Shown: positions 1 to 1,288 of the stretch, one piece after another
Layout of the letters: each line of letters starts with the position of its first letter
Position numbering within the stretch: position 1 is the first letter of the stretch
Assembly (NCBI GenBank): GCA_000004985.1
Contig: GG739455.1
DNA from: Naegleria gruberi
Taxonomy: Eukaryota
Length of the DNA: 1,288 nt
Direction: 5' to 3' (one strand)
Program-made: the position numbers and the translations under genes
The notes under the pieces: model-generated
The model's input: the letters and a program-made list of their open reading frames with translations, nothing else
Databases searched by the model: none
Told to the model about the DNA's origin: nothing

Positions 1-1
1 C

Positions 2-67
2 ATATGGCTTTTTAGTGAGATTCGTCAGCAGAATGTTTTTGAAATTATTGAGCTTGAAGAAGAATAA
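2..67 (+). CDS. 3' end of an upstream protein-coding gene (partial, product unknown); C-terminus ...IWLFSEIRQQNVFEIIELEEE*
   Basis: Frame 2 is open from the window edge to TAA at 65-67. Codons are overwhelmingly A/T-ending (ata, ctt, ttt, agt, att, cgt, aat, gtt, gaa x4) and position 1 is G-enriched, as expected for genuine coding sequence in an AT-rich genome. The overlapping frame 3 runs longer (3-122, stop TAA 120-122) but uses many G/C-ending codons (ggc, gtg, ttc, gtc, agc, ttg, aag, aac), which is atypical for this base composition. Only 21 codons are visible, so the frame choice is tentative. Confidence 0.35.
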   Translation: MWLFSEIRQQNVFEIIELEEE

Positions 68-126
68 CAGACAAATTACCAGTGATGGCTACGAGGAAAC
101 CTATTCCAAAGCAAGTGAATAAATTG

Positions 127-140
127 TATATTATAATATA
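127..140. repeat. Perfect 14-bp A/T-only palindrome TATATTATAATATA, containing TATAAT on both strands
   Basis: Direct reading shows 127-140 is self-complementary. TATAAT is on the plus strand at 132-137 and on the minus strand as the complement of 130-135. TG at 125-126 gives a TGTATATT extended -10-like arrangement. It lies immediately downstream of the left-end CDS stop codons. Confidence 0.8.
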
Positions 141-151
141 AAATTAATATT

Positions 152-180
152 TTGAAAAATTCTTATCAATTATTTACAGT
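152..180 (+). promoter_or_regulatory. Candidate sigma70-like promoter: TTGAAA (152-157), 17-bp spacer, TACAGT (175-180), upstream of ORF 211-381
   Basis: The -35-like hexamer matches 5/6 and the -10-like hexamer has the conserved T1, A2 and T6. Spacing is 17 bp and the predicted start is about 187, 24 nt before the ATG. AT-rich DNA yields many such matches by chance. Confidence 0.15.
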
Positions 181-186
181 AAACAT

Positions 187-196
187 TTCCCGCCCA
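187..196. repeat. GC-rich 10-mer TTCCCGCCCA; exact reverse complement of 1111-1120 (GC-box-like, GGGCGG core on minus strand)
   Basis: Exact 10/10 inverted match to TGGGCGGGAA at 1111-1120. A GC-only core of this length is very unlikely to recur by chance in 1.3 kb of about 27% GC DNA. Confidence 0.7.
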
Positions 197-210
197 ACAA
201 CAATTAAAAA

Positions 211-381
211 ATGAAAAAGCAAAGAAAAATTTCATCCATCAAAAAAACACGGGTGGCCGACGCATATCCCTTTTGGCCTGAAATCAGCACTGGGAAAACG
301 TGGGCCAAGTTGACTTCCAGAGAAATACATAGGTACATGATACCATATTTTCACAGTATGAGTTATCACGCTAAAAAATAA
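211..381 (+). CDS. Hypothetical small ORF, 56 aa, basic (MKKQRKISSIKKTRVADAYPFWPEISTGKTWAKLTSREIHRYMIPYFHSMSYHAKK); coding status doubtful
   Basis: ATG at 211 to TAA at 379-381; the frame is open from 148. It is the only ORF over 50 codons in the window and sits in a locally GC-richer segment. Against coding: many rare-type G/C-ending codons (cgg, ggg, agg, ccc, gcc, acg), weak G enrichment at position 1, no Shine-Dalgarno-like sequence upstream, and it contains the GC-rich repeated motifs GGGTGGCC and GGCCTGAA that recur in non-coding context at 980-991. Confidence 0.22.
   Translation: MKKQRKISSIKKTRVADAYPFWPEISTGKTWAKLTSREIHRYMIPYFHSMSYHAKK
251..282 (+). repeat. Split copy of GC-rich motif GGGTGGCC (251-258) ... 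GGCCTGAA (275-282), related to the contiguous copy at 980-991
   Basis: GGGTGGCC and GGCCTGAA are each exact 8-mers shared with 980-991. Here they are separated by 16 nt (GACGCATATCCCTTTT). The copy lies inside the putative small ORF. Confidence 0.6.
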
Positions 382-606
382 TTTTGGAAAACTTTTATTA
401 ATTTTTGTATTGTTTTTGACGAGTTATAAATAAATTCCCATTTTTAGAATTTTTTAAAATTGATTAATATGGTATTATCATAATGAATACAGAAATTCAT
501 CAAATAATATGAATCAATAATATAAATTGTGTATTAATGTACTTAAATTTCAATTTTCATTAATTCATTCCAACAAATAAAAGACTAGTTATAAAATAAT
601 AAGAGG

Positions 607-618
607 TGTCAATTGACA
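607..618. repeat. Perfect 12-bp palindrome TGTCAATTGACA (TTGACA on both strands), preceded by AAGAGG (601-606)
   Basis: Self-complementary by direct reading. TTGACA equals the sigma70 -35 consensus on either strand, but no convincing -10 sits 16-18 bp downstream in either direction. It is more consistent with a dimeric DNA-binding-protein site. Confidence 0.6.
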
Positions 619-653
619 ATCGCATTAATAGATCATACTTTATTTTAAATTGA

Positions 654-669
654 TGATGTTTTAACATCA
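654..669. repeat. Inverted repeat TGATGTT-tt-AACATCA (7-bp arms, 2-bp centre)
   Basis: Arms 654-660 and 663-669 are exact reverse complements. The spacer is too short for a stable RNA hairpin loop, so an operator-like DNA site or cruciform is more plausible. Confidence 0.55.
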
Positions 670-685
670 CCTTATAGACATGGTA

Positions 686-693
686 TGTATAAT
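686..693 (+). promoter_or_regulatory. TGTATAAT: -10 hexamer TATAAT (688-693) with adjacent upstream TG; possible extended -10 promoter element
   Basis: Exact TATAAT with TG immediately 5' (not the canonical TGnTATAAT spacing). No good -35 (TTAACA at 661-666 is 21 bp away). Nothing coding downstream within the window. Confidence 0.12.
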
Positions 694-708
694 ATTTTTT
701 CATTTTAG

Positions 709-733
709 TTGGTTGATATCAGATTATCAACAA
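709..733. repeat. Hairpin-capable inverted repeat GTTGATA (712-718) / TATCAAC (725-731), 6-nt loop TCAGAT; right arm contains DnaA-box-like TTATCAACA (724-732, 8/9 to TTATCCACA)
   Basis: The 7-bp arms are exact reverse complements. Two more A-T pairs (709-710 with 732-733) can form across a one-base bulge (G711). An EcoRV-type GATATC palindrome is at 715-720. Confidence 0.5.
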
Positions 734-979
734 GATAGAGCTCAACAAAACATTTTCTCCAAAATATGTTAGTGTTTTCATAAGTAAATTAAAAAAACTG
801 ACGACAAAAGTTGCTAAATAGTGTTTAGAGAATTTTCACGTATACGAACATGTATAACGTATTGTAATAAAAAACTAGATAGGGAAAAACATTTAATTCT
901 AAGCTAAAATTTGAAAATACTGTTATTGACCAATATTTTTCATGTTCTAAAAATAATCAGCTTGTTTGCACAGTAATTT

Positions 980-991
980 GGGTGGCCTGAA
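980..991 (+). repeat. Contiguous copy of GC-rich motif GGGTGGCCTGAA, direct repeat of 251-258 plus 275-282
   Basis: Exact 8-mer matches to both halves of the left copy. It is followed by AGGAG (991-995) but no start codon. Confidence 0.6.
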
Positions 992-1033
992 GGAGACTCT
1001 AAAAAAAATCGCTGGACTTGTAATAAGGAAACC

Positions 1034-1055
1034 ATTATTGGAGGCCTCCAATAAT
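1034..1055. repeat. Perfect 22-bp palindrome ATTATTGGAGG|CCTCCAATAAT with GC-rich centre
   Basis: All 11 position pairs are complementary (checked base by base). It is the longest perfect palindrome in the window and the GC-richest local segment. No T-tract follows on the plus strand. On the minus strand it is followed by GGTTTCCTTATTA (moderately U-rich), so a weak minus-strand intrinsic terminator is possible. A protein-binding or cruciform site is equally plausible. Confidence 0.85.
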
Positions 1056-1060
1056 CATCC

Positions 1061-1079
1061 CTATATTGTGATGATATAG
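1061..1079. repeat. Small inverted repeat CTATAT (1061-1066) / ATATAG (1074-1079) with 7-nt loop TGTGATG
   Basis: 6-bp exact complementary arms immediately downstream of the 22-bp palindrome. AT-rich, so weak. Confidence 0.35.
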
Positions 1080-1110
1080 TTGAGCTTGCTTAATGTCCTT
1101 AATATCTGTC

Positions 1111-1120
1111 TGGGCGGGAA
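1111..1120. repeat. GC-rich 10-mer TGGGCGGGAA; inverted partner of 187-196; close to the Sp1-type GC-box consensus KGGGCGGRRY (9/10)
   Basis: Exact reverse complement of 187-196. The inverted pair does not extend beyond the 10-mer, and there is no matching flanking direct repeat. Confidence 0.7.
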
Positions 1121-1130
1121 TCAAACTGAT

Positions 1131-1235
1131 TTTCCATTTCTTTCAAATGTGTAAATACGTTTTCAACATTTAGAACGTTTCAAACGTCTTTAACGTGTTT
1201 AATCAGTTTAGTTTAATAAATTCTTTTCAAAAATT
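1131..1235. repeat. Degenerate tandem array of about 9-bp units. Core copies are AACGTTTCA / AACGTCTTT / AACGTGTTT (1174-1200), flanked by AACATTTAG (1165-1173) and AATCAGTTT (1201-1209). TTTCAA(A) motifs recur at 1141, 1161, 1178 and 1226
   Basis: ACGT tetramers sit at 1157, 1175, 1184 and 1193 (spacing 18, 9, 9). T-tracts recur every 9 nt from about 1131 to 1229. A 13-bp palindrome ACGTTTCAAACGT (1175-1187) spans two units. The ACGT cores give AACGTT, AACGTC and AACGTG in successive units. Confidence 0.65.
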
Positions 1236-1288
1236 AAAAATAACCACCAACGAAATAATTGGAATTTTTTCACGGAATCATTCTGAAT
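1208..1288 (-). CDS. Possible 3' end of a minus-strand gene entering from the right edge (...IQNDSVKKFQLFRWWLFLIFEKNLLN*); weak
   Basis: The minus-strand frame is open for 26 codons from the window edge to a TAA whose complement is at 1208-1210. The other two minus frames hit stops within 6 codons. The stretch is short and AT-rich and it overlaps the 9-bp tandem repeat region, so it could be chance. Confidence 0.15.
   Translation of the reverse strand: MQNDSVKKFQLFRWWLFLIFEKNLLN

What the first reader, a model, noticed from the sequence alone, without database searches (positions are those of the whole stretch)
123..1207. More than 1 kb with essentially no coding capacity in an otherwise gene-like AT-rich context
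After the left CDS stop (67, or 122 in the alternate frame), every frame on both strands is interrupted every few codons for about 1.1 kb. The only exception is the doubtful 56-codon ORF. In a bacterial or organellar genome a spacer this long is itself unusual and usually marks an origin, a large non-coding RNA, a decayed pseudogene or mobile remnant, or a regulatory hub. In an AT-rich eukaryote it would be ordinary intergenic or intronic DNA. The embedded GC-rich motif islands, palindromes and tandem repeats argue for function rather than neutral spacer.
Basis: seen in the sequence. Interest (0 to 1): 0.55.

Follow-up and report, generated by a model that had tools for sequence, protein, structure and literature searches.

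The report
Unmatched AT-rich non-coding DNA, probably eukaryotic
The stretch without genes is real, but so is the rest of the window: all 1288 bases look like ordinary AT-rich non-coding DNA of unidentified, most likely eukaryotic, origin, with a few short non-random motifs and no sign of an RNA gene, origin, pseudogene or mobile element.

Summary
The absence of ORFs in 123-1207 is confirmed. It is no more than chance gives at 27.6% G+C: the longest open run is 63 codons, against 65 +/- 14 in shuffles. It also does not stop at the stated borders. The two "flanking CDS ends" are open for only 21-39 codons, show no period-3 signal and match no protein in 5.8 billion clusters. The window therefore gives no evidence of a gene-like context. 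Alternative genetic codes do not rescue an ORF.

The following were negative:
- Rfam, tRNA/tmRNA and terminator scans; DnaA boxes and promoter-like sites were at chance level.
- Six-frame Pfam and NCBIfam searches, apart from one weak MecI hit treated as chance, and a six-frame search of the protein collection.
- blastn against the phage, plasmid and E. coli collections.
- Exact and degenerate pattern scans of prokaryotic genomes, metagenomes and viral contigs.

Four short features exceed shuffle controls:
- a 22-nt perfect palindrome at 1034-1055 carrying ATTGG/CCAAT;
- a 10-nt GC-box/E2F-like inverted pair at 187-196 and 1111-1120;
- a GGGTGGCC pair at 251 and 980;
- a degenerate 9-nt array of six units at 1156-1209.

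Best reading, at about 0.55: ordinary intergenic, promoter-proximal or intronic DNA of an AT-rich eukaryote. This rests mainly on negative evidence, because the source could not be identified. Interest is low.

The parts
1..1288 (.). Whole window: AT-rich (about 27-28% G+C) DNA with no coding signal on either strand
   Evidence: No open run above 63 codons under the standard code, and no convincing ORF under six other stop-codon sets, including those of codes 4 and 6. No period-3 signal. No Pfam or protein-collection hit; one weak NCBIfam MecI hit treated as chance.
187..196 (+). TTCCCGCCCA, the left copy of a 10-nt GC-rich inverted pair. As TTTCCCGCC (186-194) it reads like an E2F site or, in reverse, a GC box. 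It lies 15 nt upstream of the ATG at 211
   Evidence: Exact inverted pair with 1111-1120; 0 of 2000 local-composition shuffles give such a pair. TTCCCGCC occurs twice against 0.20 expected. The transcription-factor reading comes from memory of consensus sites and was not tested.
211..381 (+). 56-codon ORF overlapping the left G+C-richer island (about 240-345, up to 47% G+C); probably not a gene
   Evidence: The length is within the chance distribution. It is not on record as a gene product. HMMER against 1.84 billion representatives gave only three tandem-repeat junk proteins. No period-3 signal.
251..282 (+). GGGTGGCC (251-258) and TTTGGCCTGAA (272-282): motifs shared with 980-991
   Evidence: GGGTGGCC direct pair: 0.35% of local shuffles. 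The GGTGGCCTGAA family has 5 matches against 0.97 expected, reached by 0 of 200 shuffles; two of the five are the two strands of the palindrome core.
400..600 (.). Most AT-rich core (15-18% G+C) with weak short tandem repeats (10-mer x2.1 at 441-461, 13-mer x1.9 at 503-527)
   Evidence: composition; TRF scores 35 and 43, below the default threshold of 50.
607..618 (.). 12-nt perfect palindrome TGTCAATTGACA
   Evidence: The count of palindromes of this size is at chance.
980..991 (+). GGGTGGCCTGAA, the second copy of the shared GC-rich motif, in the right G+C-richer island (about 960-1130)
1034..1055 (.). 22-nt perfect palindrome ATTATTGGAGGCCTCCAATAAT, with ATTGG and CCAAT on either side of an AGGCCT centre
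   Evidence: Half-length of 11 reached in 0.5% of 1000 dinucleotide shuffles. As single-stranded DNA it folds to a 9-bp hairpin with z = -2.25. It accounts for the only notable RNA-fold z-score in the window, -2.7 at 1001-1120.
1111..1120 (-). TGGGCGGGAA, the right copy of the 10-nt inverted pair (GC-box/E2F-like)
1156..1209 (+). Degenerate 9-nt-period array of six units (TACGTTTTC AACATTTAG AACGTTTCA AACGTCTTT AACGTGTTT AATCAGTTT; consensus AACGTNTTT)
   Evidence: 71% self-match at period 9, reached by 0 of 500 local shuffles. TRF score is 33 for the core.

Best explanation
The window is ordinary non-coding DNA, either intergenic and promoter-proximal or intronic, from an AT-rich eukaryotic nuclear genome that is not in the collections available here. 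The 1.1-kb 'spacer' is not a bounded element between two genes, because the whole 1288 bases are non-coding.

The two islands richer in G+C (about 240-345 and 960-1130) carry short motifs that look like binding sites for eukaryotic transcription factors. These are a GC-box/E2F-like TTCCCGCCCA in inverted copies, a palindromic pair of CCAAT boxes, and a shared GGGTGGCC(TGAA) word. If the region does anything, it most likely acts as cis-regulatory DNA bound by such factors. The 9-nt array is a small degenerate minisatellite of the kind produced by replication slippage.

Shown: the absence of coding and of known-RNA signals, the non-randomness of four short motifs, and the absence from prokaryotic, viral and plasmid collections. 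Inferred: the eukaryotic origin and any regulatory role.
For: 1. Nothing in the window looks coding.
- The longest open run equals the shuffle expectation.
- No period-3 signal appears anywhere.
- Six other stop-codon sets, including those of codes 4 and 6, give no convincing ORF.
- Six-frame Pfam and a six-frame search of 5.8 billion protein clusters give nothing.
- The flank peptides match nothing at E<=10.
A fully non-coding 1.3-kb window is rare in prokaryotes, phages and plasmids, and is the norm in AT-rich eukaryotes (established knowledge).

2. The sequence is absent from non-eukaryotic collections.
- blastn with 11-nt words finds nothing in 50,697 phage records, 72,556 plasmids or 5,426 E. 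coli genomes.
- An exact 24-mer and six degenerate 24-nt patterns spread over the window are absent from one genome for each of 185,579 bacterial and archaeal species, from 241 million metagenome records and from 2.9 million viral contigs.

3. No prokaryotic signals were found.
- No intrinsic terminators, and sigma-70-like sites at chance (12 against 8.7 +/- 2.8).
- DnaA boxes at chance.
- No tRNA or tmRNA and no Rfam family.

4. The non-random motifs read as GC-box/E2F-like and CCAAT elements. That combination is typical of eukaryotic TATA-less promoters. This is recalled consensus knowledge and counts only as a lead.
Against: The organism was never identified, so the eukaryotic assignment rests on negative evidence and on base rates. 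No eukaryotic nucleotide collection or repeat library was available.

The exact and degenerate pattern scans can miss a prokaryotic relative that is about 5% or more diverged, or a strain-specific region. CpG is barely depleted (observed/expected 0.88), which says nothing either way. The transcription-factor readings of the motifs are untested. A palindrome, a short repeat array and a very AT-rich core are also what a replication origin of an unsampled replicon would show.
Confidence: 0.55

Rival explanations
1. A long non-coding region of an unsampled AT-rich prokaryotic, plasmid or viral replicon that serves as a replication origin or regulatory hub. In this reading the AT-rich core (400-600) is the unwinding element, and the palindrome and the 9-nt array are protein-binding sites.
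For: The core is 15-18% G+C and carries weak 10- and 13-nt tandem repeats. A significant 22-nt perfect palindrome is present. So are a significant 9-nt periodic array of six units and GC-rich inverted 10-mers bracketing the region.
Against: DnaA boxes are at chance, with one 1-mismatch site against 0.51 expected. The window holds no initiator, rep or partition gene and no coding sequence at all. No relative exists in the phage, plasmid, viral-contig, prokaryotic-genome or metagenome collections. The array units are short (9 nt) and degenerate, unlike typical iterons of 17-22 nt. GC skew is uninformative at this length.
Confidence: 0.12
2. Heavily decayed pseudogene or mobile-element remnants in a reductive AT-rich genome such as an endosymbiont or a Firmicutes-like organism. 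One candidate remnant is a BlaI/MecI/CopY-type repressor at about 714-965, read in frame +3 through eight in-frame stops.
For: There is a weak collinear match to MecI residues 27-108: NCBIfam NF000243 at E 0.023 and 14.9 bits, and PDB 1sd6/1okr at E 0.17. MecI alone scores 10.5 bits against the window, above all 1000 shuffled windows. Two islands richer in G+C sit in an AT-rich background.
Against: The MecI hit is far below the curated cut-off of 250 bits. Its E-value becomes about 0.14 after allowing for six frames. A staphylococcal BlaI/MecI family profile scores lower than the single sequence (6.1 bits), hhalign gives 7% probability over only 29 columns, and Pfam PF03965 does not hit. MecI comes from an AT-rich organism, so a match driven by composition is expected. 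Nothing else hits in six frames. The degenerate-pattern scans found no relative in any GTDB species representative.
Confidence: 0.1
3. A eukaryotic gene fragment. Exon 1 would run from the ATG at 211 to 332 with donor AG|GTACAT. An intron of 641 nt would follow, then exon 2 from 974 (acceptor TTTGCACAG|T) to the stop at 1077-1079. The product would be a novel 75-residue protein expressed from the E2F-like site at 186-194.
For: The join is in frame, and both proposed exons coincide with the islands richer in G+C. The ATG has an A-rich context, and the E2F-like motif lies just upstream.
Against: The splice signals are weak, and GT and AG dinucleotides are everywhere in this sequence. An in-frame join has a one-in-three chance. 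No homologue of either exon peptide exists in 5.8 billion clusters. The 56-residue ORF has no real homologue among 1.84 billion representatives. No period-3 signal is seen, and the ORF length is within chance.
Confidence: 0.08
4. An organellar (mitochondrial or plastid) intergenic spacer or control region.
For: The region is AT-rich with short hairpins and palindromes and with islands richer in G+C. Spacers of about 1 kb are common in plastid and fungal mitochondrial genomes (established knowledge).
Against: No tRNA or rRNA is present and no group I or II intron family matches. The flank peptides match no organellar protein, although organellar proteins are highly conserved and densely sampled. 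Reading TGA as a sense codon gives no convincing ORF.
Confidence: 0.05

Closest known systems
Intergenic, promoter-proximal or intronic DNA of AT-rich eukaryotic nuclear genomes
   Same: More than 1.2 kb without ORFs, period-3 signal, known RNA families or protein remnants. Moderately G+C-richer islands lie in a 15-27% G+C background. The short motifs resemble GC-box/E2F and CCAAT elements, and a small degenerate minisatellite is present.
   Different: The organism was not identified. No transcription start, exon or repeat-family assignment could be made, and the motif readings are untested.
Bacterial or plasmid replication origins (oriC or iteron type)
   Same: A very AT-rich core, a perfect palindrome and a short tandem array of protein-site-sized units.
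   Different: There is no enrichment of DnaA boxes, no neighbouring initiator gene and no relatives in prokaryotic, plasmid or phage collections. The units are 9 nt and degenerate rather than iterons of 17-22 nt.
BlaI/MecI/CopY winged-helix repressor genes, as a decayed pseudogene
   Same: Frame +3 of about 714-965 aligns collinearly with MecI residues 27-108, including a K-x-[FW]-S-P-K-x-[IV]-x-x-[FL]-I-[ST]-[KR]-L pattern.
   Different: Eight in-frame stops interrupt it. The scores are 15-16 bits at E 0.02-0.2, the family profile and hhalign do not support it, Pfam gives no hit, and no N-terminal part or partner sensor gene is present.
Non-autonomous TIR transposons (MITE-like)
   Same: A perfect 10-nt inverted pair brackets 187-1120.
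   Different: The inverted similarity does not extend beyond 10 nt. No target-site duplication abuts the arms. There is no transposase remnant and no second copy anywhere searched.

Membership tests
Known structured RNA families (Rfam 15) | Covariance-model match at or near the family's gathering score | tested here: not met
   cmscan on both strands at E<=1 gave 0 matches. ARAGORN found 0 tRNA or tmRNA genes. Sliding-window fold z-scores are ordinary except at the palindrome.
Bacterial chromosomal origin (oriC) | Cluster of DnaA boxes (TTATCCACA-like) next to an AT-rich unwinding element | tested here: not met
   One 1-mismatch box against 0.51 expected; 81 of 200 shuffles do as well.
Bacterial chromosomal origin (oriC) | Switch in GC skew, and neighbouring dnaA/dnaN-type genes | tested here: inconclusive
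   The window is too short for a skew switch to mean anything. No gene of any kind was detected in the window.
Iteron-type plasmid or viral origin | Several well-conserved direct repeats of 17-22 nt next to a rep gene | tested here: not met
   Only a degenerate 9-nt array is present. No rep-like protein appears in six frames. There is no match in plasmids, phages or viral contigs.
Pseudogene of a known protein family | Significant six-frame similarity to a protein family across stops or frameshifts | tested here: not met
   Pfam gave 0 hits at E<=10. The 5.8-billion-cluster search gave 0 at E<=1. NCBIfam gave only MecI at 14.9 bits against a cut-off of 250. A family profile scored 6.1 bits, and hhalign gave 7% probability.
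TIR transposon or MITE | Terminal inverted repeats flanked directly by a target-site duplication | tested here: not met
   10-nt inverted arms exist. However, the bases abutting them (AAACAT| and |TCAAAC) are not a direct duplication, and the arms do not extend further.
Spacer between convergent prokaryotic genes | Real coding sequence on both sides, usually followed by terminators | tested here: not met
   The flank frames are open for 21-39 codons only. There is no period-3 signal, no protein match at E<=10 and no terminator-like site.
Eukaryotic Pol II promoter with GC-box/E2F and CCAAT elements | Presence of the consensus motifs | tested here: met
   TTTCCCGCC at 186-194 and GGCGGGAA at 1113-1120. 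ATTGG and CCAAT lie within the palindrome at 1034-1055. Matching these to factor consensus sequences relies on memory and is only a lead.
Eukaryotic Pol II promoter with GC-box/E2F and CCAAT elements | Eukaryotic source, a mapped transcription start and factor occupancy | not testable with these tools
   No eukaryotic nucleotide collection, transcriptome or binding data is available.

The most novel reading that the evidence does not exclude
The window comes from a compact, so far unsampled AT-rich replicon (bacterial, archaeal, viral or organellar). In that case at least 1.2 kb of non-coding DNA is a real functional locus: for example a replication origin, or the gene of a large unclassified non-coding RNA, organised around the 22-nt palindrome, the GC-rich inverted 10-mers and the 9-nt array.
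Probability: 0.08. Interest if true: 0.5.

Novelty: already known. Interest (0 to 1): 0.12.

Why it matters
As it stands it matters little. A window without ORFs in AT-rich DNA of unknown, probably eukaryotic, origin is the expected background, and it should not be promoted as a candidate origin, RNA or mobile element.

The useful result is negative. The 'long spacer' signal depended on assuming that the flanks were genes, and they are not detectably so. The significant short motifs would become worth following only if the window were later placed in a compact prokaryotic, viral or organellar genome.

Tried and rejected
- **Alternative genetic codes.** I tried TGA as a sense codon, TGA as the only stop, and TAA-only, TAG-only, TAA+TGA and TAG+TGA stop sets. 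None gave an ORF beyond what stop frequency predicts.
- **Known RNAs.** Rfam at E<=1 and ARAGORN found none. Sliding-window RNA folding showed only the palindrome.
- **Source identification.** All of these were negative:
  - blastn against phages, plasmids and E. coli genomes;
  - an exact 24-mer in genome, viral and metagenome collections;
  - the palindrome in viral contigs;
  - degenerate peptide-pattern scans of the viral, genome and metagenome collections, once with six patterns from the ORF region in viral contigs and once in each collection with six patterns spread over the window;
  - exact-product look-ups of the 56-residue ORF and the 39-residue left fragment.
- **Literature search** for five motif strings. 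It returned only chance primer matches.
- **Protein remnants.**
  - Six-frame Pfam, the six-frame concatenation against 5.8 billion clusters and the flank-only peptides found nothing.
  - NCBIfam gave one weak MecI hit.
It returned three tandem-repeat junk proteins.
  - Two family scans given as DNA references failed because of stop codons. The NCBIfam scan was repeated with X in place of stops; the PHROGs scan was not repeated.
- **The MecI/BlaI lead.** I followed it up with the PDB, shuffle controls and a family profile and hhalign. I rejected it as a post-hoc match driven by composition.
- **Long terminal or internal repeats** by self-blastn. Only low-complexity AT self-similarity turned up.
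- **Origin signals.** DnaA boxes were at chance.
- **A spliced two-exon gene.** I considered it, but it has no support beyond an in-frame join.
Full report
**1. The observation**

The window is 1288 nt.
- TAA at 65-67 closes frame +2.
- TAA at 120-122 closes frame +3.
- The only ATG-started ORF of note runs 211-381 (56 codons).
- A minus-strand frame that enters from the right edge stops at 1208-1210.

Between 123 and 1207 the longest run without a stop in any of the six frames is 63 codons. In 1000 shuffles of the same composition the longest run averages 64.9 +/- 14.2, and 49.5% of shuffles reach 63. The lack of ORFs is therefore real, but it is what random DNA of this composition gives.

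Six other stop-codon sets do not produce a convincing ORF. These were TGA as sense (code 4), TGA as the only stop (code 6), TAA-only, TAG-only, TAA+TGA and TAG+TGA. The longest runs they give are in line with the frequency of the remaining stop codons.

**2. The context is not detectably gene-like**

The finding treats 1-122 and 1208-1288 as ends of coding sequences. Several results argue against that.
- These flanks are open for 21 or 39 codons on the left and 26 or 38 on the right. That is shorter than the open runs inside the supposed spacer.
- A Fourier test for three-base periodicity in 180-nt windows never exceeds the 95th percentile of its shuffles anywhere, flanks included.
- A dedicated search with only the four flank peptides found three word-sharing candidates and nothing at E<=10 in 5.8 billion protein clusters.
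- The 39-residue left fragment is not on record as a gene product.
- No terminator-like hairpin follows either 'gene end'. Sigma-70-like sites number 12 against 8.7 +/- 2.8 in shuffles.

The whole window behaves as non-coding DNA. The 'spacer' has no demonstrable borders.

**3.

*Large or known non-coding RNA.* Rfam 15 on both strands with permissive filters at E<=1 gave no match. ARAGORN found no tRNA or tmRNA. Folding z-scores in 120-nt windows on both strands lie between -2 and +2.5, with one exception: -2.7 at 1001-1120, which is caused by the palindrome.

*Replication origin.* One DnaA box with one mismatch is present against 0.51 expected. No initiator gene is present, and GC skew over 1.3 kb is uninformative.

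*Pseudogene.*
- Six-frame translations with stops masked gave no Pfam hit at E<=10.
- The six frames, concatenated, gave no hit at E<=1 against 5.8 billion clusters.
- NCBIfam gave a single weak hit, to MecI: E 0.023 and 14.9 bits against a curated cut-off of 250.

I followed the MecI hit up. The PDB search also put MecI first (E 0.17), with a collinear 79-residue alignment through the in-frame stops. MecI alone scores 10.5 bits on the window, above all 1000 shuffled windows. Against this:
- A profile of 13 staphylococcal BlaI/MecI proteins scores only 6.1 bits.
- hhalign gives 7% probability over 29 columns.
- Pfam's family model does not hit.

A true remnant should score at least as well with the family profile as with one member. 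MecI comes from an AT-rich organism and was picked after the fact from thousands of models. I treat the hit as chance.

*The 56-residue ORF.* It has no real homologue among 1.84 billion representatives. The three hits are translated tandem repeats whose scores add up over copies.

*Mobile remnant.* Self-comparison shows only low-complexity AT similarity. The 10-nt inverted pair does not extend further and has no target-site duplication next to it.

**4. What is non-random**

Four short features exceed their controls.

| Feature | Coordinates | Control |
|---|---|---|
| Perfect 22-nt palindrome ATTATTGGAGGCCTCCAATAAT | 1034-1055 | 0.5% of 1000 dinucleotide shuffles reach this length |
| Inverted pair TTCCCGCCCA / TGGGCGGGAA | 187-196 / 1111-1120 | 0 of 2000 shuffles that keep local composition; TTCCCGCC twice against 0.20 expected |
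| GGGTGGCC direct pair | 251 and 980 | 0.35% of local shuffles; extended word GGTGGCCTGAA enriched |
| Degenerate 9-nt-period array of six units | 1156-1209 | 0 of 500 local shuffles |

The overall number of palindromes is at chance. The tandem repeats TRF finds all score below 50.

From memory of consensus sites, TTTCCCGCC/GGGCGGGAA resembles E2F and GC-box (Sp1/KLF) sites, and ATTGG/CCAAT resembles NF-Y sites. This is a lead, not a test.

**5. Where the window comes from**

I could not place it.
- blastn with 11-nt words found nothing in the phage, plasmid or E. coli collections.
- An exact 24-mer from the left island is absent from the prokaryotic species representatives, the metagenome records and the viral contigs.
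- Degenerate patterns back-translated from open stretches spread over the window found no confirmed relative in any of the three collections.
- The palindrome is absent from viral contigs.

These scans can miss relatives that are more than a few per cent diverged, so they are not proof. Taken together with a fully non-coding 1.3 kb, unmatched flanks and the absence of prokaryotic signals, the most economical reading is nuclear DNA of an AT-rich eukaryote. The collections available here do not cover that class.

**6. Explanation and rivals**

| Reading | Confidence |
|---|---|
| Ordinary eukaryotic intergenic, promoter-proximal or intronic DNA; the islands may carry cis-regulatory sites and the 9-nt array is a small slippage product | 0.55 |
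| Origin or regulatory region of an unsampled compact replicon | 0.12 |
| Decayed pseudogene or mobile remnants in a reductive AT-rich genome | 0.10 |
| Two-exon eukaryotic mini-gene (211-332 joined in frame to 974-1079), with no homology or periodicity support | 0.08 |
| Organellar spacer | 0.05 |

The remainder allows for artefactual or artificial sequence. That is unlikely for a plain shuffle, given the 22-nt palindrome.

**7. Verdict**

The feature is of a known, ordinary kind and interest is low. A single nucleotide search against eukaryote-inclusive databases would settle the matter.

Noticed in passing
window 1034-1055: Perfect 22-nt palindrome ATTATTGGAGGCCTCCAATAAT, with ATTGG and CCAAT on either side of an AGGCCT centre. 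It is rare in shuffles (0.5% reach it). It has no match in viral contigs, the only collection scanned for it.
   Followed up: partly
window 187-196 and 1111-1120: Exact GC-rich 10-nt inverted pair TTCCCGCCCA / TGGGCGGGAA, 914 nt apart, reached by 0 of 2000 local shuffles. It reads as GC-box/E2F-like. It has no extension and no target-site duplication.
   Followed up: partly
window 251-282 and 980-991: GGGTGGCC occurs in both G+C-richer islands, and GGCCTGAA follows in both, directly at 984 and after a 16-nt gap at 275. The meaning is unknown.
   Followed up: partly
window 1156-1209: Six head-to-tail units of 9 nt with consensus AACGTNTTT. In frame +1 they read as N-V-[SF] tripeptide repeats in a frame that stays open to the right edge of the window, but no start codon, homologue or period-3 signal supports coding.
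   Followed up: partly
window 714-965, frame +3: Weak collinear similarity to the MecI repressor (residues 27-108) through eight in-frame stops, at E 0.02-0.2. The family profile and hhalign do not support it, so it is probably a chance match driven by composition.
   Followed up: yes
window 211-332 and 974-1079: A donor-like AG|GTACAT at 332/333 and an acceptor-like TTTGCACAG|T at 973/974 would join the 56-codon ORF in frame to the open stretch of the right island. A similar TTTTCACAG lies at 348-356. There is no supporting evidence.
   Followed up: partly
window 148-185 and 1209-1246: A 38-nt direct repeat at 74% identity lies just outside the 10-nt inverted pair. It is AT-rich and close to what low-complexity self-similarity gives (blastn E 0.005).
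   Followed up: no
proteins P0001-P0003: The only library hits to the 56-residue ORF are proteins made of tandem repeats, translated satellite-like DNA. Their scores accumulate over copies, which shows how such entries create false positives for short queries.
   Followed up: yes
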